DNA of 22,496 bases from a virus (lineage: Duplodnaviria; Heunggongvirae; Uroviricota; Caudoviricetes): IMG/VR virus record IMGVR_UViG_3300000301_000103. One strand, given 5' to 3'. Every line of letters begins with the position of its first letter. Within the stretch, counting starts at the first letter, position 1. A model generated the notes under the pieces. That model was not told the DNA's origin and did not search any database. It saw only the letters and a program-made list of their open reading frames with translations. A program made the position numbers and the translations under genes. Shown here in pieces: positions 1 through 16,614 of this stretch.

Positions 1-1
1 A

Positions 2-1514
2 CAGACGATGAACGCGACTCGATTGCTTGCCGGCTTCACAATGGCTGAAGCTGACGGTGTGCGTTCCGCAATCGGTAAGAAGAACATGGAAAAAATGAAG
101 AGCATGGGCGAGAAGTTCATCGTTCAGGCTCAAGCTGGCTGGATAGACGTTGAGCTGGAAGATGGCACTACACAGCGCATTCACCGTGCGGAACATTTTA
201 AATGCGAAGACGGAACTCTGAAAACTGTCGAAGAGGCACTTGAGCACGGCGCAAAACTACCTATAAACGCAGTACGCGTTACAGCGTCACATCCAGGGCT
301 ATCAGAGATGAAAGCGAAGGAGATCTGGACCGCATTCGAAAAAAATGGTGCCTACCAGTTCAATAAATCACACTCCGTTGCTTATTCTTTAATCAGTTAT
401 CAGTCTATGTGGCTAAAGACGCACTACCCTGCTGAGTTCTTCGCAGCTGCGCTCACCATTCTGGGCGAGGATAAGCATCAGGGGCTGGTGAAGGATGCGC
501 TGACCTATGGCATTCGCGTATTGCCACCAGACGTTAATGTGTCATCTAACCGAATTGAGATCCGCACACTCGAAGACGGCAGTCAGGCACTGTATGCGCC
601 ATTCTCTGCTGTGAAAGGCTGTTCTGAAAATGGTTGTCAGGCAATTATGCGTGCGCGTGAGAAAGTTGGTGGCAAATTCGAGTCAGTGGCACAATTCGAT
701 GAAGCGGTCGAGAAGCGTGCATGTAACAGTCGTGTACGCGAGTCGCTTCATAAAGTAGGGGCTTTTGCGTCAATTGAGCCAGGCAGTCTGCCAGCAACTG
801 ATCCTGAACGACTGCGCGACCAGGCTGAGCTGATGGGCAATCTCATCATTGACGCTGTTAAAGCATCACGTCCGTTCGAAATGAATCCTAAGCGTTCTGC
901 CGAAATCAACGTACTCATGACACGTATGGCGGCTGAAATGGGCTTGGGTGAGGAGTTGATACGCCCGACTATTGGTATTAAACCCAAAATCATGATCATT
1001 CTGGACAATGCGAACGGCAATGACGCTCGTACCGGCTACTTCATGGAGAACGGATACGACGACTTTAAGGCAAAACTACTGACAGTTGGAGATCTGCGCA
1101 TGGGCGATCTTTATGTCACGGGTGTTTGTAAGAAGGTTAAGGACAAAGAGAAAGACTATACCAAAGACGAGATAGGCCAGTTCACAGACTTTATGCGGGA
1201 AGAAATTAATCTTGTACGACCAACCTACATTTTGACGTGTGGTAGTCGTTCAANNNNNNNNNNNNNNNNNNNNNNNNNNNNNNNNNNNNNNNNNNNNNNN
1301 NNNNNNNNNNNNNNNNNNNNNNNNNNNNNNNNNNNNNGCACTATTTAACAATAAGAGTAAACCATCAGATCTGATTGGTCGTAAGGAGTACTTCCCAGAG
1401 CTTGATGCAACCGTCTTCTACGGATTTAACCCGAATATCCTGTACTTCCGACCGGAAGAAGGAGAGCGACTGGAGGCCATTCTGGCTGATATCGCGGAGA
1501 CAATAAATAAGTAA
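2..1514 (+). CDS. dnaE: DNA polymerase III alpha subunit (DnaE family), C-terminal part; 5' end lies outside the window; carries a C-terminal UDG-fold-like extension
   Basis: Open from window edge; translation has the DnaE motif region FNKSHSVAYSLISYQSMWLKTHYPAEFFAA. N-run 1254-1337 interrupts it; the reading continues in another frame to TAA at 1512-1514. Confidence 0.8.
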
Positions 1515-2362: not shown

Positions 2363-2926
2363 TTATGCGCATTTCGCAATATCTTTGCGGCGTTTAATCA
2401 GTTTCTCCGCAATTTGCTCTATTTCGTTGAAATCTTTCGAGACGCTGTTTCGAAGCGCCAGATTCCATTTACTCAAAGTTCGGGCATTTTGGACAATTTG
2501 ATCGCCCTCTTTAAGTCGTCCGTTATTCATGAGCCATTCAGCCACATCAGCCCAATCCCAGAGAGGAGACTGGCCTTTTATGCGTTGTACAGGGCAAGGG
2601 AAGTCGCCGCTTCCGCGCTTACCGTCTTTGAGCAACGCCACTGCCTGGCGAGACAGGTCTGTCAGTTCCGCGATATCGCTTAAGCCCACAAGAGCCGAGT
2701 CGACGGATTCAACAATTGCACCGATACCGGCTGATTCAATATTGTCGACCGCAGATGCGATAGCTGCATCAAGTGATTGTGCTTCGCGGTCAAATTCTAC
2801 ATAGACGGAGTTTCCATATGCGCAAATTAGCGCATCGTCACAGCCGTTTTGGTACAGCGCGTCTTCCAGTCCTTCCGTCTCATACGATACGCCTGAGAGC
2901 GTCAGAGTGAAGTTATAAAGCGCCAT
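2363..2926 (-). CDS. DNA-binding protein with XRE-type helix-turn-helix (possible antitoxin or repressor)
   Basis: Start ATG (plus 2924-2926) preceded by AAAGGAAAACT; HTH-like segment LVGLSDIAELTDLSRQAVALLKDGKR. The ORF-track start 12 codons upstream lacks an RBS. Confidence 0.6.
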   Translation of the reverse strand: MALYNFTLTLSGVSYETEGLEDALYQNGCDDALICAYGNSVYVEFDREAQSLDAAIASAVDNIESAGIGAIVESVDSALVGLSDIAELTDLSRQAVALLKDGKRGSGDFPCPVQRIKGQSPLWDWADVAEWLMNNGRLKEGDQIVQNARTLSKWNLALRNSVSKDFNEIEQIAEKLIKRRKDIAKCA

Positions 2927-2986
2927 AGTTTTCCTTTGAAGATAGTTGGACAGTTTCTGCAAAAGGCGGCTAATGCCGCCTTGAAA

Positions 2987-3295
2987 TCATTTACAACGAT
3001 CAACCATTCGTTTGATCTGTTTGGCATGGTTTTCGGGATTACCCGGAGTCGACCATACGCTCATTTGGNNNNNNNNNNNNNNNNNNNNNNNNNNNNNNNN
3101 NNNNNNNNNNNNNNNNNNNNNNNNNNNNNNNNNNNNNNNNNNNNNNNNNNNNNNAGTTTTGTGTTCACCTTCTGGATTACCGCATCGCAGTCTGCAAAAA
3201 CAATGTGCAGCACCACCAGCAGCTACCCAGATCCAGCCTTTACTTAATGCATAGTCAATGGCTGCTTGAATATGCTTATTCGGATGTTGCTTCAT
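2987..3295 (-). CDS. Small hypothetical protein, first gene of a two-gene module (interrupted by N-run 3069-3154)
   Basis: ATG at plus 3293-3295 preceded by GGAGG and a sigma70-like promoter; N-term MKQHPNKHIQAAIDYALSKGWIWVAAGGAAHCF. Middle of the protein is hidden by Ns. Confidence 0.5.
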   Translation of the reverse strand: MKQHPNKHIQAAIDYALSKGWIWVAAGGAAHCFCRLRCGNPEGEHKTXXXXXXXXXXXXXXXXXXXXXXXXXXXXXQMSVWSTPGNPENHAKQIKRMVDRCK

Positions 3296-3994: not shown

Positions 3995-4016
3995 ATAAGT
4001 AAGTACTGATCTATCA
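3995..4016 (+). promoter_or_regulatory. Recurrent imperfect palindrome site 2 (ATAAGTAAGTACTGATCTATCA)
   Basis: Same motif family, 83 nt upstream of the SSB start codon. Confidence 0.4.
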
Positions 4017-4098
4017 TTTAACAGCTCGAAAGAGCCACGAATGAACGAAAGCCCAACGCGCATAGCGCCATCGGCCAAATCACAACAAGGAGAAACAC

Positions 4099-5203
4099 AT
4101 GTCTAAGACATTACTTGATTTGCTTAACAAAACTCGTGAAGACATTGCCGCCAAACGTGGCAACAACGTTGATCTGACTCGCTTAAAAGACGGCGTCAAC
4201 TATATCCGCATCTTCCCGAATAAAGACGACCCAAACGGTAAGTTCTTCCAGACTTTCGGTATGCACTACGTTAAGTATCAGAACGAGGAAGGTAAAGAAG
4301 CAACCAACGCTTATATTTGTGAGCAACATACTCACGGTCGCGCTTGTCAGCTATGCGAAATGGTGATGGAAGGTCGCGCTCGTCACAAGGGTAACAAAGC
4401 AATGGAAGAACGCATCGGTCAAATGCGTGCCACTCCTCGCTACCTGGTCAACGGCATTCTTTCTGCTCGTGAGGATTTCGCAGATGCTGAGAAATGCCAG
4501 TTAATCGAGCTGCCGTCTACTGTATTCGATGATATCTGCAAAGCAATCACCGAAGACATCGCTGATGATATCGGCAATCCACTGAGCAAAGAGGAAGGCT
4601 ACGCATTCCTGATTAAACGTACTGGCTCTGGTCGCGATACCAAATATGACGTCTCGCCTAAGCGTAAAGTCTACAAAGGCGATATCGAAGATAAATTCTG
4701 GAACACCCAGCATGATCTGATCGCATACGCAAATCAGGCTGATGAAACTCGTCTTCTGTCGACAGTTCGCACTATGGGTCGTCTGATTGGCATCGCTGCA
4801 CCAACTGCCGCAGCATCTGCACCAGCAATTTCCTCAACCGCGAAAACATCGGCTGCGGCACTACCTGGATTTGGCTCTGTCACTGGTCATACAGAAGGAG
4901 CGACGGCTGTAGCAACCGCGCACACACCGGCTTCTGAACCAACCAGTCTGGTTGATGAAGAAATCCTCCGTGCCGTTGAAACTGAATTTAAACCAGAGGC
5001 AAGTTCCGCTGCCGTTGCCGTATCAGTCAAAGAGTCTGAAGCAGTCGCAGCGACATCTGTAGCAACCGCATCTGCGACGGAAGATNNNNNNNNNNNNNNN
5101 NNNNNNNNNNNNNNNNNNNNNNNNNNNNNNNNNNNNNNNNNNNNNNNNNNNNNNNNNNNNNNNNNNNCTGGATGACCTACTGAGAGAGCTGGACTCTCTG
5201 TAA
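4099..5203 (+). CDS. Single-stranded DNA-binding protein, T4 gp32-like (zinc-binding), with Ala/Ser/Thr-rich linker and acidic tail
   Basis: ATG preceded by AAGGAG; YIRIFPNKDDPNGKFF resembles the gp32 N-terminal region; Cys-x3-His-x5-Cys-x2-Cys (CEQHTHGRACQLC) fits the gp32 zinc site pattern. After N-run 5086-5167 the tail LDDLLRELDSL ends at TAA 5201-5203 in a different frame. Confidence 0.7.
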
Positions 5204-5219
5204 TCCCATTACGTGACCA

Positions 5220-5250
5220 GTAAGGCGTCTACGGACGCCTTACTTTTTGG
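5220..5250 (+). terminator. Rho-independent terminator (GTAAGGCGTC-TACG-GACGCCTTAC + TTTTT)
   Basis: Perfect 10-bp stem, 4-nt loop and T5 run 17 nt after the SSB stop. It lies inside the ORF-track ORF 5213.., which argues for the later FEN start. Confidence 0.7.
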
Positions 5251-5263
5251 AAGGAATGTACCG

Positions 5264-6363
5264 GTGAATTATCTCTTCGTAGATGGCAATAGCCTGGGCT
5301 ATTACCACCAACAATCTGACAAATTGCACAACGGCGAAATGGAAGTACAGGCTGCTTTCGGCTTTGTTANNNNNNNNNNNNNNNNNNNNNNNNNNNNNNN
5401 NNNNNNNNNNNNNNNNNNNNNNNNNNNNNNNNNNNNNNNNNNNNNNNNNNNNNNNNNNCGTTATGCCTCCATCCTCCATGCCCGGCCTATGATTCTTTGG
5501 GATGGATTTAGTGACAAGCGTCGCGACTTTTACCCGGACTACAAAGCAAATCGCGACGACGATCCTGATATGAAAAAGATGAAGGAAGGCTTTGCTATCC
5601 AGAAGCCATACATCCTCAAAATGATGACCGCGCTTGGAGTTACCCAACTCATTGCAAAAGATGCAGAAGCGGATGATCTGGCCGGGCTGCTGGTATCCCG
5701 CATGGCACCGCAGCCAACCGTTGAACACATCTATCTGTTAACAGGCGATAGCGACTGGCTTCAGTTAGTTCGTGAAAACGTAAGCTGGGTAAGCCTGCGT
5801 GAAGACGCCAAAAACAAGCAGGTTAATTTTGAGCAATTTGCGGAGCTGACAGGATTCGCCACGCCTCGCGCATTTTTGGAAGCAAAAGCATTACAAGGCG
5901 ATAAATCGGACAACATTAGCGGTGTTGGTGGCATTGGTGCTGGCGGTGCGAAAGAGCTGCTGCATGNNNNNNNNNNNNNNNNNNNNNNNNNNNNNNNNNN
6001 NNNNNNNNNNNNNNNNNNNNNNNNNNNNNNNNNNNNNNNNNNNNNNNNNNNNNNNNNNCAACGATGGTACGCGGCATCAACGACGGCTCAATCGTGGTTG
6101 ACAAAGGACGCCATAAGACCGCCTTCAACAAACTAGCGAAGAATGCCTTCAACGAGAAAACAGGCTGTCGAATGCTCGAAGCGTTCAAGAGAAACATCAC
6201 GCTAATGAACCTGATTGAGACGAAGTTTCCGCCTACCGAAATCGAAACAATCAAAGGCAATCGTGACGTGAAAGCATTCGAGCAACTGTGCTACGAGCTG
6301 AATTTCCGTTCGTTCCTTGAAGACCTTGAAGTGTTTGTTCTTCCATTCGAAAGGTATTGCTAA
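5264..6363 (+). CDS. 5'-3' exonuclease / flap endonuclease (T4 RNase H / T5 D15 family)
   Basis: GTG start 8 nt after AAGGA gives MNYLFVDGNSLGYY. Motifs YKANRDD, EADDLAGLL, TGDSDWLQLV and H3TH GDKSDNISGVGGIG are present. N-runs 5370-5458 and 5967-6058 interrupt it; the frame changes after the second; stop TAA 6361-6363. Confidence 0.8.
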
Positions 6364-6704
6364 TGCTTAAATCGATTATTAATGGCGCTACAACCACCCC
6401 CACCCAACTGGCAAAAGAGATTGTCTTTTATCACGGTGAGTACGCTGTCATCGCACTGCCGTCAATTCTAGGCGCTGCCGGAATGAAAGCGACAGATCGC
6501 GAGTTTGGATTAGTCAGCGAGCAGGTCGTAAAAATCCTCGCTCGTGTATCCAGACTCCTTAATCACGATGCGATTGTATTCGACGAATCCGCCGCTTTAA
6601 NNNNNNNNNNNNNNNNNNNNNNNNNNNNNNNNNNNNNNNNNNNNNNNNNNNNNNNNNNNNNNNNNNNNNNNNNNNNNNNNATCAACGAAACAAAAGGAGC
6701 CTGA
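6363..6704 (+). CDS. Hypothetical protein (about 110 aa, C-terminus uncertain because of N-run 6601-6680)
   Basis: ATG overlaps the FEN stop (TAATG), preceded by GAAAGG; no recognisable motifs. Confidence 0.45.
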   Translation: MLKSIINGATTTPTQLAKEIVFYHGEYAVIALPSILGAAGMKATDREFGLVSEQVVKILARVSRLLNHDAIVFDESAALXXXXXXXXXXXXXXXXXXXXXXXXXXXINETKGA

Positions 6705-6706
6705 TC

Positions 6707-9437
6707 ATGGCAAAAGGAAAATCCGCACTGGCACTTGCTCTGAAAAAGAAAATCGGTAGCAACGACGAAATTCAGAAAGTAACTCATTGGATTGACACAG
6801 GCTTTCCTCCGTTAAACAAAGCTATTTCCGGTCGTTACGATGGCGGTTTCCCATGTGGTCGTATCGTAGAAGTATTCGGGCCACCAAGCGCGGGGAAATG
6901 TGTTACCGCAGACACCATGCTGCTGACGGAGCGTGGAATGGTAACAGTGAAAGAGTTGTTTGAGATTGAAGGGTACAAAGCGACATGCACTACTCGCGAT
7001 GTAGAGCATAACGTTGGACTCATCAATGAAAATGGCGTGATAGAGAAGACCTCACACCTGACATGGAACAACCGTCGCAAATTCAAGCGTATTAAGCTGG
7101 CATCAGGCGGTTATATCGAGGCTACGTTCCGTCACCCAATCCGTGTGGTTGACGACTTAGGTAATGTCGTCTGGCGACATGCTGAAAAAATCAGTGTAGG
7201 CGACACGATTCCTTCAATGGTTGGCACACATCAATTCGGCGATCAGCACCTGGATGCCAATATCGCAAAACTGATGGGCTATTTAATTGCTGACGGATAC
7301 GTGGCCTCTGAAAATTCAGTGAATTTTTCTAACACAGATCCTTTCATCAAGGATGAGTACTACCGCCTCATTTCGCTGGTATCAGACAAGATGCCAGTTG
7401 CGAGAAAACATAACGGCTCGGAAGACCATGTGCTGTTTAGCAAAGAGGTGCGTTCGCTGCTTTTTAAAGAATATGGTCTGGAGTATGAGAAAGCTGCTGG
7501 CAAGCAGGTTCCGTTGAGTGTGCGTCGCGCCAATAGCGAGGCTCAAATTGCATTCCTTCGCGGCTACTTTGAGCTGGAATGCCACGTCAATGATGGTCGC
7601 TGCATTGAGGTTGTGAGCGCGAGTGGGCTGCTGCTACAGCAAATTCGCCTCATGCTCCTGAATCTGGGGATTACGTCAACTATCTCTGAAAAACACGTCG
7701 CGGGTTATGAAAATACATATTACCGGCTGTCATTCAGTGGCTCTAATTACGACCTTTTTCTGTCAACGATTGGTTTCGAATCTCCGGCACGTTTATCAGT
7801 GGCAACCAAACGGGACATTGGTTTTGACCGCACTTACTCAGGCTATGTTCCGCACATCAGCGGCTTAGTGAAATCACTCNNNNNNNNNNNNNNNNNNNNN
7901 NNNNNNNNNNNNNNNNNNNNNNNNNNNNNNNNNNNNNNNNNNNNNNNNNNNNNNNNNNNNNNNNNNNNNNNNNNCACCCGTGAAGACTACGCTCTGGTAG
8001 ACCACGTTATTGGCCGCGGCGATCGTGTCGGAATAGACAAACTGCGAGAAATCTATGTCTCCTTCATTGGCAGAAAGAATCGTTTTAACGAGCATCTGTT
8101 TGCACAACTGGCAGCGGTAATTGGCTCTAACTTGTTCTACGACGAAGTCGTGGCTATTGAGGAAGGTGAAGCACCAACGTTCGACGTAGCGATGCCGGAA
8201 ACACACTCNNNNNNNNNNNNNNNNNNNNNNNNNNNNNNNNNNNNNNNNNNNNNNNNNNNNNNNNNNNNNNNNNNNNNNNNNNNNNNNNNNNNNNNNNNNN
8301 NNNNNNNNGCCACAACACATTCCTTGCAACAGCAGCGATGATCTCCGCTCAAAAACAAGATGGTCTGGCGGTATTCCTCGATCATGAAAACAGTTTTGAC
8401 GTTGGCCTGGCTGCAGCCAATGGCCTGAACGCAGATGAGGATGACGGTCAGTGGGTATACAAGCANNNNNNNNNNNNNNNNNNNNNNNNNNNNNNNNNNN
8501 NNNNNNNNNNNNNNNNNNNNNNNNNNNNNNNNNNNNNNNNNNNNNNNNNNNNNNNNNNNNNNNNNNNNNNNNNNNNNNNNNNNNNNNNNNNNNNNNNNNN
8601 NNNNNNNNNNNNNNNNNNNNNNNNNNNNNNNNNNNNNNNNATCGTGGCTGACTCTCTTGCGTCTATGGTTCCGAACTCCAAAGCCGAGAAGTTCGAAAAG
8701 ATGGCTGAAGGCACAGCCAAAGACAAAGATCAGCTAAACATGAACGACAATACGGCACTGGCTCGTGCGACGAGNNNNNNNNNNNNNNNNNNNNNNNNNN
8801 NNNNNNNNNNNNNNNNNNNNNNNNNNNNNNNNNNNNNNNNNNNNNNNNNNNNNNNNNNNNNNNNNNNNNNNNNNNNNNNNNNNNNCACGCAAATACAACG
8901 CCTGCATCATCTTCTTGAATCAGGTTCGCACAAAAATCGGTGTAATGTTTGGCGACCCTACTACGTCGCCAGGTGGAGATTCACCGAAGTTCTACGCTTC
9001 TGTACGTATCCGTCTTGGTGCATCGGTGATGAAGGATGGTAAAGAGAAGATCGGCCAGGACGTAGGCGCAGAATGCATCAAAAACAAAGTTGCACCACCG
9101 TATGGCAAATGCACCTGGAAATTCTACTTCGATCCTACTCGTGGCCTCGACGTTATCGAGTCGCTCGTCGAGTACATGCTGGAAGAAGGATACCTGCCAA
9201 AGAACGCCAGCGGTCGAGTAGAAATTGGTGACAAGAAATACACCAAATCACAAATCGTCGAGATGTATCGGGAGAAGCCACNNNNNNNNNNNNNNNNNNN
9301 NNNNNNNNNNNNNNNNNNNNNNNNNNNNNNNNNNNNNNNNNNNNNNNNNNNNNNNNNNNNNNNNNNNNNNNGCGGCTTTACAGGCAATCGACGACCGGAG
9401 ATCAAAAGACAATCCCACCGAGTCAGTAGAAGAGTAA
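6707..9437 (+). CDS. recA: RecA-family recombinase interrupted by an intein
   Basis: ATG preceded by AAAGGAG. Walker A GPPSAGK is followed directly by an intein; C-extein has IIFLNQVRTKIGVMFGDPTTSPGGDSPKFYASVRIRL, the RecA core signature. Four N-runs lie inside the gene and frames shift across three; stop TAA 9435-9437. Confidence 0.8.
6899..8316 (+). other. Intein with LAGLIDADG homing-endonuclease domain, inserted in the RecA P-loop
   Basis: Starts with Cys right after GPPSAGK (CVTADTMLL, block A); TxxH block B (EATFRHP); LAGLIDADG-like LMGYLIADGY and IAFLRGYFELE; block F-like TFDVAMPETH; ends HN followed by Thr (cac aac aca at 8311-8319). N-runs 7880-7974 and 8209-8308 lie inside. Confidence 0.7.
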
Positions 9438-9441
9438 ACAC

Positions 9442-9468
9442 AAGGCGTCCACAGGACGCCTTTTTTAT
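9442..9468 (+). terminator. Rho-independent terminator (AAGGCGTCC-ACA-GGACGCCTT + TTTTAT)
   Basis: 9-bp perfect stem and T-run 5 nt after the recA stop. Confidence 0.7.
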
Positions 9469-9480
9469 CTCTTGAAAATA

Positions 9481-9500
9481 TATAAGTGCTTACTTATCAT
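9481..9500 (+). promoter_or_regulatory. Recurrent imperfect palindrome site 3 (ATAAGT-GCTT-ACTTAT); also fits TTGAAA-17 nt-TATCAT
   Basis: Inverted hexamers ATAAGT/ACTTAT; TTGAAA at 9472-9477 and TATCAT at 9495-9500 are spaced 17 nt. Confidence 0.45.
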
Positions 9501-9529
9501 TTTCACATAACAACCACATAGGAAAACAC

Positions 9530-9730
9530 ATGATCAAAATCTATCTATTGGCAGTAGCCACAGGCCTTTCAGTGGCTCTCATCTACGGATTACTGGTTCC
9601 GTCGCTGATTTCTGCAAAGAGTGATTTGGCCGTCATGCTTGGAGTTCTCGTTGGTTTTGGCGCTCCAGTAATCGGTCTTATTGGTGGTCGTAAGTTTATT
9701 AACTCATTAATCAAAGCAAAGGGGAAATAA
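9530..9730 (+). CDS. Small membrane protein (66 aa, two predicted transmembrane helices)
   Basis: ATG preceded by AGGAAAACAC; almost entirely hydrophobic with a short basic tail; stop is 3 nt before the SPFH gene start. Confidence 0.6.
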   Translation: MIKIYLLAVATGLSVALIYGLLVPSLISAKSDLAVMLGVLVGFGAPVIGLIGGRKFINSLIKAKGK

Positions 9731-9733
9731 GTA

Positions 9734-10643
9734 ATGAAGAAAGGTTTACTTGCAGTTGCTCTGGCGGCTATTTGCACAATGGGTCTTACTGGCTGTGATC
9801 GCGTGGAGCCTGGATACGTTGGCATCAAAGTAAACAAATTAGGTGAAGACAAAGGGATTGGTGAAGTGGTTGGCGTTGGTCGCCAATGGACAGGTCTTAA
9901 CACCGAACTTTACGTATTCCCGACCTTCAAACAAATGAAGACCTACGACGAGCCGTTCACATTCCAGATGAGTGACGGTACTGCTATTGGTCACAAAATT
10001 GGCGTTGCGTATCTGGTTAATCGTGACAAGGTAACTACGGTGTTCCAGACCTATCGCAAAGGCGTAGACGATATCACCGNNNNNNNNNNNNNNNNNNNNN
10101 NNNNNNNNNNNNNNNNNNNNNNNNNNNNNNNNNNNNNNNNNNNNNNNCGATATCACCGAATCAGATCTGCGTCAGAAAATTGCCGACTCTCTAAACCGTT
10201 TGGCCAGCCGTATGACCACTGACTCATTTATCGACGGTGGTAAGGCACAATTGCTGGACAACGCACTGAAAGATATTCAGAAAGAGATGTCTCCGGTTGG
10301 TATTGAGGTACTGAGCCTGTCATGGGTTGGAAAGCCTGATTACCCAAAAACTGTCATTGAATCTATTAACGCCAAAGTAACGGCTAACCAGCGTACTCTG
10401 CAACGTCAGCAGGAAGTTGAACAACGTAAAGCTGAGGCGAATATGCTACGTGAACAGGCTAATGGTGAAGCTGATGCTATCCGTGCTCGTGCGCAAGCAG
10501 AAGCAGACGCCATTCGTCTGCGCGGTGAAGCTCTGCGTCAAAACCCGAACGTTATGGAACTGGAAGCCATCAATAAATGGAATGGCCAGTTACCGCAGTA
10601 CATGACTCAAGGGGCTAACACTCCTTTCATTACAGTGAAATAA
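9734..10643 (+). CDS. SPFH/Band 7 (prohibitin/HflC-like) domain lipoprotein
   Basis: Signal peptide with lipobox LTGC; Band-7-like core and Ala/Glu/Arg-rich coiled-coil tail (AEANMLREQANGEADAIRARAQAEADAIRLRGEAL). N-run 10080-10147 interrupts it and is flanked by identical 10-mers GATATCACCG. Confidence 0.7.
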
Positions 10644-15338: not shown

Positions 15339-15851
15339 ATGAGTGAATTTTATTCAAGGGCAGCAACTGTGACAGACATGCCTTTTATCATGGCTGAGTT
15401 CGAGGACGGCGCACGCAAAGGTCACTTCTACGAAGAGATCCTCACATCAAAGGGGGGGTAAAACCTTTGAGCAGCAGACCAGACTGGCAATCAAGACGAA
15501 CGAGCGGGGCCAATACTCCGGGCATTTTATCTACATCCTGCTGCATCGTTCTGATGACAAAAAGTAGGACTAATCTGGTTCTGTGCCGCACTCGATCCGA
15601 CTGGCGCACCTTGACTTGAACTCCGTGCCGTCAGTATTGTCAAAGAGCTTCGCGGAAAAGGCTATGGGTCAATGCTGGTGTCCGACATGATCGCATCAAA
15701 CCCTAGTCAGCCGACGATGGCAAAGNNNNNNNNNNNNNNNNNNNNNNNNNNNNNNNNNNNNNNNNNNNNNNNNNNNNNNNNNNNNNNNNNNNNNNNNNNN
15801 NNNNNNNNNNNNNNNNNNNNNNNNNNNNNNTGCTGTTTCGCGACCCAAAAT
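15339..15851 (+). pseudogene. Disrupted GNAT-family N-acetyltransferase
   Basis: Frame 0 MSEFYSRAATVTDMPFIMAEFEDGARKGHFYEEILTSKGG stops after a G7 run (15452-15458). It continues in frame +1 (KTFEQQTRLAIKTNERGQYSGHFIYILLHRSDDKK, TAG 15565), then frame 0 (GLIWFCAALDPTGAP, TGA 15612), then LELRAVSIVKELRGKGYGSMLVSDMIA with a GNAT motif-A-like R-G-x-G-x-G. N-run 15726-15830 follows. Confidence 0.55.
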
Positions 15852-15875
15852 AAAAAGCACCCCATACGAGGTGCT
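15845..15875 (-). terminator. Minus-strand rho-independent terminator (AGCACC-loop-GGTGCT with T-run on the minus strand)
   Basis: Plus strand reads AAAATAAAAAGCACC CCATACGA GGTGCT; on the minus strand the stem is followed by TTTTTATTTTGG, 10 nt after the lipoprotein stop. Confidence 0.55.
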
Positions 15876-15884
15876 CCTGAAGAA

Positions 15885-16388
15885 TTAATCACAAGTCGTT
15901 TTGCCCGTGCCGTCTGGGTACACGATTGATTCGCACGACTTGCCATTCAAGAAGCTGTAGCTGCGAATAGTACCGTCCGGATCGCGTTCTGTGTAAGACT
16001 CCAGCTTCTTCGGATCAGCGTTCTTACGGCGCACTTCTTTCAGCTCATATTGGGCCTTGTACATCTCCTTGTAGGCTTCCTCTATGCGTTTCATTTTGAT
16101 CTCCTTTGCCTCTTTGCTGCCCAGATAAGCGGCCATTTCAAGATCACAGTTGAACCTGATTTTTGGGAATGAAGGCGCGTATCTACCCATGACTTTGGTT
16201 AAATCATTGTCGTTAGAGACATAATAGGCATGGCTTCCACACAATTTGTCGGCTCTGTCTTGGGCAATTGCTACGCTTGAAGTGGAGTAAATATCAACGT
16301 ACCCGCCAGCTGACTTTTCATCTTGAGGTGGTTTTGGTACGCATCCGATCAGAGCAATGGCCATCGTCCCTATAATTACGCGTTTCAC
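15885..16388 (-). CDS. Lipoprotein (167 aa), function unknown
   Basis: GTG start (plus 16386-16388) 7 nt after AAGGAG; N-terminus MKRVIIGTMAIALIGC carries lipobox LIGC. Confidence 0.65.
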   Translation of the reverse strand: MKRVIIGTMAIALIGCVPKPPQDEKSAGGYVDIYSTSSVAIAQDRADKLCGSHAYYVSNDNDLTKVMGRYAPSFPKIRFNCDLEMAAYLGSKEAKEIKMKRIEEAYKEMYKAQYELKEVRRKNADPKKLESYTERDPDGTIRSYSFLNGKSCESIVYPDGTGKTTCD

Positions 16389-16481
16389 CGTCAGTTCTCC
16401 TTTTTCGTTTGGTTGTCATCATTAAGTGACTGCGATTATAGAGTGGCTTGTAACATCTAGAAGTCTTTGCTGTCCATAAAA

Positions 16482-16501
16482 ATAGGTATTCACTTACCTA
16501 T
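16482..16501 (+). promoter_or_regulatory. Recurrent imperfect palindrome site 5 (ATAGGTA-TTCACT-TACCTAT, perfect 7-bp arms)
   Basis: Exact inverted 7-mers, about 110 nt upstream of sbcD in the divergent intergenic region. Confidence 0.45.
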
Positions 16502-16614
16502 GAATTTGCCATAATCATGTGTCTGTGAACATTCTTAATGGCCGTGTTATCTGGATTGTTCGCCTCTCAAACACACTTAATATCTGTATCAAAATAACCA
16601 CAAAGGAAAAACAC

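What the first reader, a model, noticed from the sequence alone, without database searches (positions are those of the whole stretch)
6899..8316. LAGLIDADG intein inserted in the P-loop of RecA
The RecA ORF reads GPPSAGK then CVTADTMLL (intein block A). It continues with a TxxH block B, two LAGLIDADG-like motifs (LMGYLIADGY; IAFLRGYFELE) and a block-F-like TFDVAMPETH. It ends with HN followed by Thr just before the RecA core resumes (TFLATAAM...). Insertion exactly after the Walker A lysine makes recombinase activity depend on splicing. The endonuclease domain suggests an active or recently active homing element.
Basis: partly seen in the sequence, partly recalled or inferred. Interest (0 to 1): 0.65.

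Follow-up and report, generated by a model that had tools for sequence, protein, structure and literature searches.

The report
Homing intein in phage-plasmid RecA P-loop
The recombinase gene of this E. coli phage-plasmid is interrupted, exactly inside its ATP-binding loop, by a self-splicing protein element (intein) carrying its own DNA-cutting enzyme; it is a textbook kind of selfish element, but it is clearly still spreading among plasmid-like phages of E. coli, Klebsiella and Enterobacter.

Summary

- **Gene and host.** Window 6707-9437 (+) is the RecA/UvsX-like recombinase gene of an SSU5-like phage-plasmid, 99% identical to Escherichia phage Cyrano (= pLF82).
- **Reading frame.** The N-runs in the window are padded, so the frame breaks are artefacts. 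In Cyrano, PhiR41_1 and Klebsiella phage p4727 the gene is one ORF of 779-780 codons.
- **Exact insertion.** An intein-less allele (phage CMS-2020a, 357 aa) reads GPPSAGK|TFLATAAM. The insert is therefore exactly 422 codons, Cys1 to Asn422, with Thr at +1. This is the "classic" Lys|Thr P-loop site.
- **Profile and fold support.** Pfam Intein_splicing, TIGR01445 and LAGLIDADG_3 all pass their cut-offs. Both catalytic acidic residues are kept. A model of a 43%-identical relative matches endonuclease-containing inteins (TliVMA, PI-PfuI).
- **Evidence of mobility.**
  - Three extein lineages are only 80-84% identical to one another, and each holds alleles with and without the intein.
  - The inteins are 97-99.5% identical across those lineages.
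  - All 29 unique intein+ alleles carry GCGGGGAAA|intein|ACATTCCT. None of 45 intein-less alleles carries both halves.
  - Intein dN/dS is 0.1-0.25.
- **Novelty.** This is a new, uncharacterised member of a well-known kind. RefSeq already labels some copies "intein-containing recombinase RecA".

Interest is modest.

The parts
6694..6699 (+). Shine-Dalgarno-like AAGGAG, 7 nt upstream of the ATG at 6707
   Evidence: Read directly from the sequence.
6707..6898 (+). N-extein of the RecA/UvsX-like recombinase (64 codons). It ends with the first part of Walker A, GPPSAGK (6878-6898).
   Evidence: ORF listing. Identical N-terminus in the intein-less allele L003. The Pfam RecA match covers residues 27-68.
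6899..8316 (+). Intein, 422 codons in reality (Cys1...His421-Asn422). The window span is inflated by two padded N-runs.
   Evidence: Precise presence/absence against L003. Pfam Intein_splicing and LAGLIDADG_3. TIGR01445. Segment mapping.
6899..6925 (+). Intein block A (CVTADTMLL); Cys1 is the N-terminal nucleophile
   Evidence: C1 and T6 are invariant in the alignment of relatives.
7106..7147 (+). Intein block B (GGYIEATFRHPIRV); T76-x-x-H79
   Evidence: T76, H79 and P80 are invariant in the alignment of relatives.
7271..7300 (+). First LAGLIDADG motif (LMGYLIADGY); catalytic Asp132 at 7292-7294
   Evidence: It aligns to the LAGLIDADG helix of the TliVMA intein and PI-PkoII.
7547..7582 (+). 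Second LAGLIDADG motif (IAFLRGYFELEC); catalytic Glu227 at 7577-7579
   Evidence: The Pfam LAGLIDADG_3 match covers precursor residues 279-356. PDB alignments.
7880..7974 (.). Padded mask (95 N). It stands for 20 nt, intein residues 328-334 (YESLTKT in relatives).
   Evidence: Gap-free blastn of the flanking segments to L001, L002 and L004. Translation.
8174..8208 (+). Visible part of intein block F (PTFDVAMPETHS)
   Evidence: T402, D404, P408, S412 and F413 are invariant among relatives.
8209..8308 (.). Padded mask (100 N). It stands for 23 nt, intein residues 413-420 (FWSNGIIS in relatives), which is most of block G.
8311..8316 (+). End of block G: penultimate His421 and C-terminal Asn422
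   Evidence: Read directly. HN is conserved in all relatives.
8317..9437 (+). C-extein (293 codons in relatives). It starts with Thr+1 (8317-8319), which is the Walker A Thr. It contains three further padded N-runs (8466-8640, 8775-8885, 9282-9371). Stop TAA at 9435-9437.
   Evidence: The Pfam RecA match covers residues 484-703 of the precursor.
8890..8898 (+). Placeholder row kept only for the junction signature (see evidence). The intein-linked flanking tract is GCGGGGAAA at 6890-6898 and ACATTCCT at 8317-8324.
   Evidence: All 29 unique intein+ alleles carry this tract. None of the 45 intein-less alleles carries both halves. The window carries both halves. The coordinates that matter are 6890-6898 and 8317-8324.
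9442..9468 (+). Intrinsic-terminator-like hairpin (AAGGCGTCC ACA GGACGCCTT) followed by TTTTAT, 5 nt after the stop codon

Best explanation
Window 6899-8316 encodes a canonical (class 1) intein of 422 residues with an embedded two-motif LAGLIDADG homing endonuclease. It is inserted in frame between the Walker A lysine and threonine (GPPSAGK|T) of the RecA/UvsX-like recombinase of an SSU5-like phage-plasmid of E. coli.

**Protein level (inferred from the conserved chemistry of inteins).**
- The gene is translated as an 86.6-kDa precursor whose P-loop is split, so it should not bind or hydrolyse ATP.
- Cys1 makes the N-S acyl shift, assisted by block B T76/H79.
- Thr+1, which is itself the Mg-coordinating Walker A threonine, attacks the thioester.
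- Asn422 cyclises with help from His421.
- The result is a 39.1-kDa recombinase with an intact GPPSAGKT loop and a free 47.5-kDa intein.

**DNA level.**
- The free intein acts as a site-specific endonuclease on intein-less alleles of the same gene. Its target spans ...GCN GGN AAA|ACN TTY... .
- This can happen when two related phage-plasmids meet in one cell.
- The break is repaired from the intein-bearing copy, which copies the intein plus a few flanking bases.

**Shown and inferred.** Shown here: the exact insertion, the motifs, family membership by profiles, the presence/absence polymorphism, recent horizontal spread, and purifying selection. Inferred: actual splicing, actual cleavage, and the inactivity of the precursor.
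For: 1. **Uninterrupted ORF in relatives.** Relatives 94-99% identical have one ORF of 779-780 codons. The window's segments align to them without gaps.
2. **Intein-less alleles.** Alleles of 357-358 codons read GPPSAGK|TFLATAAM, so the insert is exactly C1...N422 with T+1.
3. **Profiles.**
   - Intein_splicing: 44.2 bits against 35.8.
   - LAGLIDADG_3: 63-66 bits against 22.5.
   - RecA: 126-146 bits against 27.
   - TIGR01445: 36.6 bits against 24.5.
   - PHROG 97 'UvsX-like recombinase' for the spliced product.
4. **Solved structures.** PDB sequence matches are all inteins: TliVMA 7qss, PI-PkoII 2cw7, PI-PfuI 1dq3, and DnaB and Pho RadA mini-inteins. An AF2 model of a 43%-identical relative (pLDDT 79.5, pTM 0.85) matches 7qss (TM 0.69-0.70), 1dq3, 2cw7 and PI-SceI.
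5. **Same site in distant relatives.** Relatives 27-48% identical occupy the same GK|C...HN|T site in other phage recombinases, bacterial RecA and RuvB. C1, T76, H79, D404 and the terminal HN are conserved.
6. **Mobility.**
   - The intein is in 248 of about 700-744 PLSDB plasmids that carry the gene, and in 114 of 250 complete E. coli genomes that carry it. It is never chromosomal.
   - Three extein lineages 80-84% identical each contain + and - alleles, while inteins across lineages are 97-99.5% identical.
   - 29 of 29 unique intein+ alleles share GCGGGGAAA|...|ACATTCCT, against 0 of 45 intein-less alleles with both halves. Lineage-specific synonymous sites resume at -10 and +9.
7. **Selection.** Intein dN/dS is 0.09-0.22 pairwise. 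Pooled, it is 0.10 for the N-splicing region and 0.24 for the endonuclease region. Extein pN/pS is 0.01-0.03 in both intein+ and intein- alleles of lineages 1 and 2.
Against: - No experiment shows splicing or DNA cleavage.
- Fifteen intein residues of this window, including most of block G, are masked and are known only from relatives.
- The structure model is of a 43%-identical relative, not of this intein.
- The endonuclease region is under more relaxed constraint than the splicing region (0.24 against 0.10).
- The intein-linked flanking tract has a second possible reading. Surviving intein-less alleles may carry cleavage-resistant synonymous variants, rather than the tract having been co-converted. 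That reading also needs an active enzyme.
- The alleles analysed are not phylogenetically independent. The safe count is three independent lineages, not 29 against 45.
- The pN/pS of 0.20 in lineage 4 is inflated by one allele with an 18-nt internal deletion that I did not realign.
Confidence: 0.86

Rival explanations
1. The intein splices, but its endonuclease is dead. The element persists by vertical descent, because only a precise deletion can remove it from a P-loop. It moves only occasionally, by ordinary homologous recombination between co-resident phage-plasmids.
For: The endonuclease region is less constrained than the N-splicing region (pN/pS 0.24 against 0.10). Several distant relatives have degenerate or deleted endonuclease domains (P0007, P0012, P0013, P0014), so decay is the usual fate. 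These plasmids are mosaic: there is a breakpoint inside the 3' end of recA.
Against: Both catalytic acidic residues (D132, E227) and both motifs are intact. A ratio of 0.24 still indicates purifying selection. The intein is 97-99.5% identical in three extein backgrounds that are 80-84% identical. The shared flank is limited to about 9 nt on each side. Without a break at the site, that would need two crossovers within about 9 nt of the junction, three separate times.
Confidence: 0.1
2. The insertion is a domesticated conditional switch. Splicing is held back in the plasmid (lysogenic) state and released by a signal (redox, temperature, ssDNA or DNA damage). The phage recombinase would then mature only when needed, as shown for the P-loop intein of Pyrococcus horikoshii RadA.
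For: The insertion site and host protein family are the same as the Pho/Tsi RadA inteins, for which conditional splicing is published (PMC5790916; PMC4760082). The catalytic Cys1 and three further cysteines in the intein could allow redox control. Exteins of intein+ alleles stay under strong selection.
Against: About half to two thirds of otherwise near-identical elements do without the intein. That argues against a needed regulatory role. The population pattern is that of a selfish homing element. Nothing in the sequence tests conditionality.
Confidence: 0.08
3. The insert does not splice. The recombinase gene is simply inactivated (a pseudogene carrying an inserted endonuclease gene), or the segments are separate genes as the frame breaks in the window suggest.
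For: In the window as given, the reading frame changes after 8209-8308 and again later, and the ORF list splits the gene. RefSeq names most copies only 'LAGLIDADG family homing endonuclease'. The gene is dispensable for plasmid maintenance, since copies disrupted by insertion sequences exist.
Against: The frame breaks are artefacts of padded N-runs. In 28 of 29 unique intein+ alleles the whole 774-781-codon frame is open, and the one exception is cut by an IS element. All splicing residues are conserved. Exteins of intein+ alleles have pN/pS of 0.01-0.03, the same as intein-less alleles.
Confidence: 0.03

Closest known systems
Pyrococcus horikoshii / Thermococcus sibericus RadA inteins (PDB 4e2t, 2lqm)
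   Same: They are inteins in the P-loop of the ATPase domain of a RecA/RadA-family recombinase (PMC5790916). The precursor cannot have an intact Walker A until it splices. There is a weak direct sequence match to this intein.
   Different: They are mini-inteins without an endonuclease, from hyperthermophilic archaea and vertically inherited. Their conditional, temperature-dependent splicing has been shown experimentally. Here the intein is 422 residues with an intact LAGLIDADG domain, sits in a mesophilic phage-plasmid, and is spreading horizontally. Nothing is known about its splicing conditions.
'Classic' Lys|Thr P-loop inteins of other ATPases (mycobacteriophage terminase TerL1-a, DnaB-b, MCM-a, RFC-a)
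   Same: The insertion point is identical within Walker A, between the invariant Lys and the nucleophilic Thr (PMC5050341; PMC4760082). The best NCBIfam hits of this intein are to intein-containing RFC small subunit models, and the alignment starts in the P-loop.
   Different: The host proteins differ. Sequence identity is low, since only profile-level matches are found.
Mycobacterium tuberculosis and M. leprae RecA inteins (PI-MtuI and relatives)
   Same: They are inteins with LAGLIDADG-type endonuclease domains in RecA, and the recombinase must splice to work (PMC5050341; PMC11377839 listed).
   Different: From my own knowledge, not tested here: their insertion sites lie later in RecA, not in the P-loop, and Mtu RecA has Cys at +1. 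The NCBIfam model built on that type (NF007072) matches this protein only through the extein (100 bits against a cut-off of 1024). They are therefore not allelic with this intein.
Endonuclease-containing inteins with solved structures: TliVMA/PhoVMA (7qss, 7qst), PI-PfuI (1dq3), PI-PkoII/PI-TkoII (2cw7), PI-SceI (1vde)
   Same: The two-part architecture is the same: a Hint splicing domain interrupted by a two-motif LAGLIDADG domain. Sequence matches reach E=7e-8. Fold matches of the family model give TM 0.6-0.7.
   Different: These are archaeal or yeast inteins in V-ATPase, ribonucleotide reductase or DNA polymerase. Identity is 10-21%.
RefSeq proteins named 'intein-containing recombinase RecA' on Enterobacter and Kluyvera IncFIB phage-plasmids (e.g. 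WP_022649903.1), and PHROG family 9666
   Same: This is the same intein (97% nt identity) in the same gene. PHROG 9666 is a 779-column profile of exactly this precursor.
   Different: These are database labels only. Most copies are labelled just 'LAGLIDADG family homing endonuclease', 'recombinase RecA' or 'hypothetical protein', and PHROG 9666 is 'unknown function'. I found no paper that mentions an intein in SSU5-like phage-plasmids.
Uncharacterised P-loop inteins of bacterial RecA and other phage recombinases in metagenomes (P0007, P0012, L014 Anaerolineae MAG, IMG/VR L043, L045, L046)
   Same: They are homologous inteins (32-48% identity) at the identical GK|C...HN|T site, and so form an allelic intein family.
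   Different: The exteins differ (bona fide RecA with a RecA C-terminal domain, or other phage recombinases). Several have lost the endonuclease.

Membership tests
Canonical (class 1) intein | In-frame insertion in a conserved host protein that is absent, to the codon, from orthologous alleles | tested here: met
   The 779-codon allele differs from the 357-codon allele by exactly C65...N486. The flanks read GPPSAGK|TFLATAAM. This held in 45 unique intein-less and 29 unique intein+ alleles.
Canonical (class 1) intein | N-terminal Cys/Ser (block A) and block B TxxH | tested here: met
   Cys1 at 6899-6901. T76-F-R-H79 at 7124-7135. These residues are invariant in relatives.
Canonical (class 1) intein | Blocks F and G ending in His-Asn, followed by a Cys/Ser/Thr nucleophile at +1 | tested here: met
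   PTFDVAMPETHS is visible at 8174-8208, HN at 8311-8316 and Thr+1 at 8317-8319. The masked middle (FWSNGIIS) is read from relatives 97-99% identical.
Canonical (class 1) intein | Match to curated intein profiles above their thresholds | tested here: met
   Pfam PF14890 scores 44.2 bits against 35.8 on the unmasked relative (only 23.7 on the window fragment that lacks the C-terminal part). TIGR01445 scores 36.6 against 24.5.
Canonical (class 1) intein | Hint fold | tested here: inconclusive
   This was modelled only for a 43%-identical family member (P0005; pLDDT 79.5, pTM 0.85). That model matches the TliVMA intein, PI-PfuI and PI-SceI. The window's own unmasked sequence could not be submitted.
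Canonical (class 1) intein | Autocatalytic protein splicing that yields ligated exteins and free intein | not testable with these tools
   There is only indirect support: exteins of intein+ alleles are under the same strong purifying selection as intein-less ones.
LAGLIDADG homing endonuclease (single-chain, two-motif) | Two LAGLIDADG motifs, each keeping the acidic catalytic residue | tested here: met
   LMGYLIADG has D132 and LRGYFELEC has E227. They align to the motifs of the TliVMA intein and PI-PkoII.
LAGLIDADG homing endonuclease (single-chain, two-motif) | Match to a curated LAGLIDADG profile above threshold | tested here: met
   PF14528 scores 65.8 bits on the window's own translation, against a cut-off of 22.5.
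LAGLIDADG homing endonuclease (single-chain, two-motif) | Site-specific cleavage of the empty allele and super-Mendelian inheritance (homing) | not testable with these tools
   The population signature is consistent with homing. The intein is 97-99.5% identical in exteins that are 80-84% identical, and the -9..+8 flank is linked to the intein.
RecA/UvsX-family recombinase (the extein) | RecA-fold ATPase core with Walker A GxxxxGK[T/S], restored by removal of the insert | tested here: met
   The spliced sequence scores 145.8 bits with Pfam RecA (cut-off 27) and 309.6 bits with PHROG 97 'UvsX-like recombinase'. Walker A is GPPSAGKT.
Bacterial RecA proper (TIGR02012 equivalog) | Score above the equivalog cut-off | tested here: not met
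   It scores 153.7 bits against a cut-off of 325.3. It is a phage-type RecA homologue and should not be filed as the bacterial RecA orthologue.
SSU5-like phage-plasmid (genomic host of the gene) | Collinearity with a described member | tested here: met
   The window is collinear with, and 97-100% identical to, Cyrano/pLF82 over about 20 kb. Cyrano is described as SSU5-like (PMC9928086).

The most novel reading that the evidence does not exclude
This would be a naturally occurring, currently active homing intein in E. coli, Klebsiella and Enterobacter phage-plasmids, sitting in the element's own recombinase. It would give a genetically tractable system in which both questions could be tested directly in E. 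coli: (a) intein homing between co-resident replicons, with unusually short co-conversion tracts, and (b) possible conditional splicing that gates a phage UvsX-like recombinase between the plasmid and lytic states. The boldest version is that splicing is regulated and matters for the phage-plasmid life cycle.
Probability: 0.1. Interest if true: 0.6.

Novelty: new member of a known kind. Interest (0 to 1): 0.3.

Why it matters
Inteins in P-loops of recombinases and other ATPases are well known, so the finding does not change any concept. Its value is practical and descriptive.

- **How common it is.** About 2% of complete E. coli genomes (114 of 5426), and a third of SSU5-like plasmids in PLSDB, carry a full-size intein that looks mobile. 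Annotation pipelines mostly mislabel the gene as a 'homing endonuclease' or 'hypothetical protein'.
- **Why the mislabel matters.** These phage-plasmids are clinically relevant carriers of resistance genes. The mislabel hides the fact that they encode a complete T4-like recombination module: UvsY-like, gp32-like SSB, exonuclease and a UvsX-like recombinase.
- **A ready data set.** The presence/absence polymorphism in three diverged gene lineages documents homing in nature.
- **A usable experimental system.** The element could be studied for homing and conditional splicing in E. coli itself.

Tried and rejected
- **Frame breaks.** I first asked whether the frame breaks in the window were real, meaning separate genes or a pseudogene. 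They are not: all N-runs are padded.
- **Structure prediction.** I modelled a 43%-identical relative with an 11-row alignment instead.
- **Species-representative genomes.** The first scan with a 7-sequence alignment failed for lack of a conserved stretch. With 4 sequences it found only two loci, a Kluyvera plasmid and an Anaerolineae MAG. The family is therefore rare among representative genomes.
- **Literature.** These searches found nothing on this element: intein + phage-plasmid, SSU5 + intein, UvsX + intein, 'RecA intein' + Walker A, and LAGLIDADG with SSU5, pHCM2 or pLF82. The supplement of Novikova et al. that lists RecA insertion sites is not held.
- **Free-standing endonuclease or BIL domain.** Both were considered and rejected. 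The insert is in frame, has Hint blocks A, B, F and G, ends in HN, and is followed by a nucleophile.
- **Risk to the host gene.** The endonuclease does not appear to threaten the host chromosomal recA. No chromosomal copy of the intein exists in 5426 E. coli genomes.
- **Lineage 4 pN/pS.** The value of 0.20 is an artefact of an unaligned 18-nt deletion allele, so I do not use it.
- **Organism of P0007.** The look-up gave only an assembly accession.
Full report
**What is in the window**

The region 6707-9437 on the + strand is one gene. It is preceded by AAGGAG (6694-6699) and followed by a terminator-like hairpin at 9442-9462.

As given, the gene looks broken. The ORF that starts at 6707 stops at 8341 in the wrong frame, and later pieces sit in other frames. 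This is an artefact. The window contains 19 runs of N, and they are padded.

When the unmasked segments are aligned to the closest public relatives, every segment aligns without gaps. The N-runs correspond to much shorter stretches:

| Window N-run | Length in window | Length in relatives |
|---|---|---|
| 7880-7974 | 95 N | 20 nt |
| 8209-8308 | 100 N | 23 nt |
| 8466-8640 | 175 N | 94 nt |
| 8775-8885 | 111 N | 29 nt |
| 9282-9371 | 90 N | 15 nt |

In Escherichia phage Cyrano (99% identical), PhiR41_1 (98%) and Klebsiella phage vB_KpnS_p4727 (94% over the part megablast aligned, which is the N-extein and intein), the gene is a single ORF of 779-780 codons.

**The insertion is exact**

Escherichia phage CMS-2020a carries the same gene without the insert. 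It has 357 codons and reads ...VFGPPSAGK|TFLATAAMISAQ.... The long alleles read ...GPPSAGK|CVTADTML...SFWSNGIISHN|TFLATAAM....

The insert is therefore exactly 422 codons, from Cys to Asn, with Thr following. The real length is 981+20+234+23+8 = 1266 nt.

The window's intein differs from Cyrano's at two residues (H26Y, T168A). Fifteen residues are hidden by the masks.

**It is an intein with a LAGLIDADG endonuclease, in a RecA-family recombinase**

Profile scores:

| Profile | Score (bits) | Cut-off | Sequence tested |
|---|---|---|---|
| Pfam RecA (split in two) | 125.6 | 27 | unmasked precursor |
| Pfam LAGLIDADG_3 | 63.3 | 22.5 | unmasked precursor |
| Pfam Intein_splicing | 44.2 | 35.8 | unmasked precursor |
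| Pfam LAGLIDADG_3 | 65.8 | 22.5 | window's first 391 codons |
| NCBIfam TIGR01445 (intein N-terminal region) | 36.6 | 24.5 | unmasked precursor |
| Pfam RecA | 145.8 | 27 | spliced product |
| PHROG 97 'UvsX-like recombinase' | 309.6 | - | spliced product |
| TIGR02012 (bacterial RecA equivalog) | 153.7 | 325.3 | spliced product |

The intein also matches the intein parts of RFC small subunit, IF-2, GyrA, RNR, DnaB and V-ATPase models.

The last row shows that the extein is a phage-type RecA homologue, not bacterial RecA proper. Its neighbours are a gp32-like SSB (PHROG 1192), a 5'-3' exonuclease (PHROG 107), and a gene the Cyrano depositors call UvsY.

All catalytic positions expected of a class 1 intein are present: Cys1, T76-x-x-H79, block F with D404 and H411, His421-Asn422, and Thr+1. 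The same holds for the two-motif endonuclease, with D132 in LMGYLIADG and E227 in LRGYFELEC.

Sequence searches of the PDB find only inteins: TliVMA 7qss/7qsu, PI-PkoII 2cw7, PI-PfuI 1dq3, and the DnaB, CDC21 and Pho RadA mini-inteins.

I could not submit the unmasked intein for structure prediction. A model of a 43%-identical relative (P0005; pLDDT 79.5, pTM 0.85) matches the full-size inteins TliVMA (TM 0.69-0.70), PI-PfuI, PI-TkoII and PI-SceI.

**Where it sits and what that implies**

The junction lies between the invariant Lys and the Thr of Walker A (GPPSAGK|T). [quoted passage not shown] The same kind of site is used by the RadA mini-inteins of Pyrococcus horikoshii and Thermococcus sibericus (PMC5790916), and by inteins of DnaB, MCM and RFC (PMC4760082).

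Established chemistry of P-loop ATPases and inteins supports the following inference. The 86.6-kDa precursor cannot form the ATP site. Splicing uses the Walker A threonine itself as the +1 nucleophile. It releases a 39.1-kDa recombinase and a 47.5-kDa intein (masses). None of this is shown experimentally.

**The genomic host**

The window is collinear with about 20 kb of Cyrano, which is plasmid pLF82 of E. coli LF82. The order is:
- the 3' end of dnaE
- hicBA
- the recombination module (UvsY-like, gp32-like SSB, exonuclease, recombinase)
- an SPFH protein
- repA
- sbcCD
- ruvC
- the start of nrdA

Cyrano is an SSU5-like phage-plasmid that produces virions and is kept at about 5.5 copies per cell (PMC9928086). 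That paper does not mention the intein.

**Distribution**

- In PLSDB the gene is found in about 700-744 plasmids and the intein DNA in 248.
  - By genus, the intein is in Escherichia 123, Klebsiella 71, Enterobacter 41 and Citrobacter 6.
  - It is also in Shigella 2, Cronobacter 2, Kluyvera 1 and Salmonella 1.
  - It is absent from the 63 Yersinia pMT1-type plasmids.
- In 5426 complete E. coli genomes, 250 have the gene and 114 have the long form. All copies are on plasmids.
- RefSeq names the long form mostly 'LAGLIDADG family homing endonuclease'. For some Enterobacter and Kluyvera plasmids it is named 'intein-containing recombinase RecA'.
- PHROG family 9666 is a profile of the precursor and is labelled 'unknown function'.

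**Evidence that the element is, or very recently was, mobile**

I collected 74 unique alleles, 29 with and 45 without the intein. They come from phage, plasmid and IMG/VR loci.

- **Lineages.** The exteins fall into lineages that are only 80-84% identical in nucleotides. Three of them contain both allele types: 9+/12-, 8+/14- and 11+/9-.
- **Near-identical exteins within a lineage.** Intein+ and intein- exteins are nearly identical within a lineage. For example, K. pneumoniae pSZP4 against pIncFIB_DHQP1400954 gives 98.4% and 99.0% for the N- and C-exteins. PhiR41_1 against CMS-2020a gives 96.9% and 99.9%.
- **Near-identical inteins across lineages.** The inteins are 97-99.5% identical between lineages.
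- **A short intein-linked flank.**
  - All 29 intein+ alleles carry GCGGGGAAA immediately before the intein and ACATTCCT immediately after it.
  - Of the 45 intein-less alleles, 4 have the 5' half, none has the 3' half and none has both.
  - Lineage-specific synonymous differences resume at -10 and +9.

The simplest reading is at least three independent invasions by double-strand-break repair, each copying the intein plus about 9 nt or less on each side. An alternative is that the remaining empty alleles carry synonymous variants that resist cleavage. Both readings need an active enzyme.

**Selection**

- Pairwise intein dN/dS is 0.09-0.22.
- Pooled pN/pS is 0.10 for the N-terminal splicing region and 0.24 for the endonuclease region.
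- Exteins of intein+ alleles have pN/pS of 0.01-0.03, the same as intein-less alleles in lineages 1 and 2. The recombinase is therefore still functional, which implies splicing.
- The 0.20 seen in lineage 4 is an artefact of one allele with an 18-nt deletion that I did not realign.
- Two copies are disrupted by insertion sequences, so the gene is not essential for plasmid maintenance.

**Older relatives**

Inteins 27-48% identical to this one sit at the very same site in several other proteins:
- other ~100-kb phage contigs with UvsX-like recombinases (L043, L045, L046)
- bona fide bacterial RecA (P0007, P0012, P0013) and a RuvB (P0014)
- the RecA of an Anaerolineae MAG, which also has a second intein

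Some of these have lost the endonuclease. This is the usual picture of an allelic intein family passing through the homing cycle, with phages as carriers.

**Comparison with what is known, and verdict**

This is a canonical intein with a LAGLIDADG homing endonuclease at the classic P-loop site of a RecA-family recombinase. Every sequence-level defining feature was met. Splicing and cleavage cannot be tested here.

The closest characterised analogue by site and host protein is the Pho RadA mini-intein. The closest by architecture are the TliVMA, PI-PfuI and PI-SceI type inteins. It is not allelic with the mycobacterial RecA inteins.

I found no paper describing an intein in SSU5-like phage-plasmids. 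RefSeq already labels some copies as intein-containing RecA.

I therefore rate it a new, uncharacterised member of a known kind. Interest is modest and rests mainly on the clear population signature of ongoing homing in E. coli, Klebsiella and Enterobacter, and on its experimental tractability.

Noticed in passing
window, all 19 N-runs (e.g. 7880-7974, 8209-8308, 8466-8640): The N-runs are padded and do not preserve length or reading frame. For example, 95 N stand for 20 nt, 100 N for 23 nt and 175 N for 94 nt in relatives 99% identical. Any ORF call across them is unreliable.
   Followed up: yes
window 9372-10079: The 3' end of the recombinase gene and the next genes are only 88% identical to Cyrano, but 96.8% identical to CMS-2020a and 91.8% to PhiR41_1. 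There is a recombination breakpoint inside the C-extein, which shows that these phage-plasmids are mosaic.
   Followed up: partly
window 15831-16575, ORF 15885-16388 (- strand): This stretch has no counterpart at this position in Cyrano. It encodes a 167-aa protein with a lipoprotein-like N-terminus (MKRVIIGTMAIALIGC...), between the ASCH gene and sbcD. It is probably an accessory 'moron' gene.
   Followed up: no
window about 2363-3295 (- strand): A HicB/HicA toxin-antitoxin pair, as annotated in Cyrano, lies between dnaE and the recombination module. Its position was mapped by collinearity only.
   Followed up: no
window 1-358: The first ~360 nt, inside the C-terminal part of the DNA polymerase III alpha gene (ORF 8..1348), do not match Cyrano at high identity. 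There is only an 80-nt stretch at 84%, whereas the rest of the gene is 99.6% identical.
   Followed up: no
window about 4000-9437: The intein sits in a T4-like recombination module: a gene annotated UvsY in Cyrano, a gp32-like SSB (PHROG 1192), a 5'-3' exonuclease (PHROG 107), a small ORF at 6357-6704, then the UvsX-like recombinase. SbcCD and RuvC lie further downstream.
   Followed up: partly
L014 2222-5209 (Anaerolineae MAG DAOTTO010000406.1): A bacterial RecA of 995 aa carries two inteins. One is a P-loop intein 45% identical to this one. The other is a mini-intein inserted at GVMFG|C...VVHN|SPETT.
   Followed up: partly
L047 2021-4654 and L053 2045-4621 (IMG/VR contigs of about 100 kb): Terminase large subunits carry an intein 22-24% identical to this one, with the same C-terminal block (TYDFTIPDTHSFWSNGFISHN). 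The insertion site is ...LFIG|C...SHN|TPK. L047 lies on the same contig as the recombinase intein L043, so that phage has two related inteins.
   Followed up: no
L011 1306-3150 (E. albertii p3RM15115) and L012 2533-3966 (E. coli pCPWW7-IncF): Two copies of the intein-bearing gene are disrupted by insertion sequences. One is cut in the C-extein. The other has lost the N-extein and half of the intein, and sits on a conjugative IncF plasmid.
   Followed up: partly
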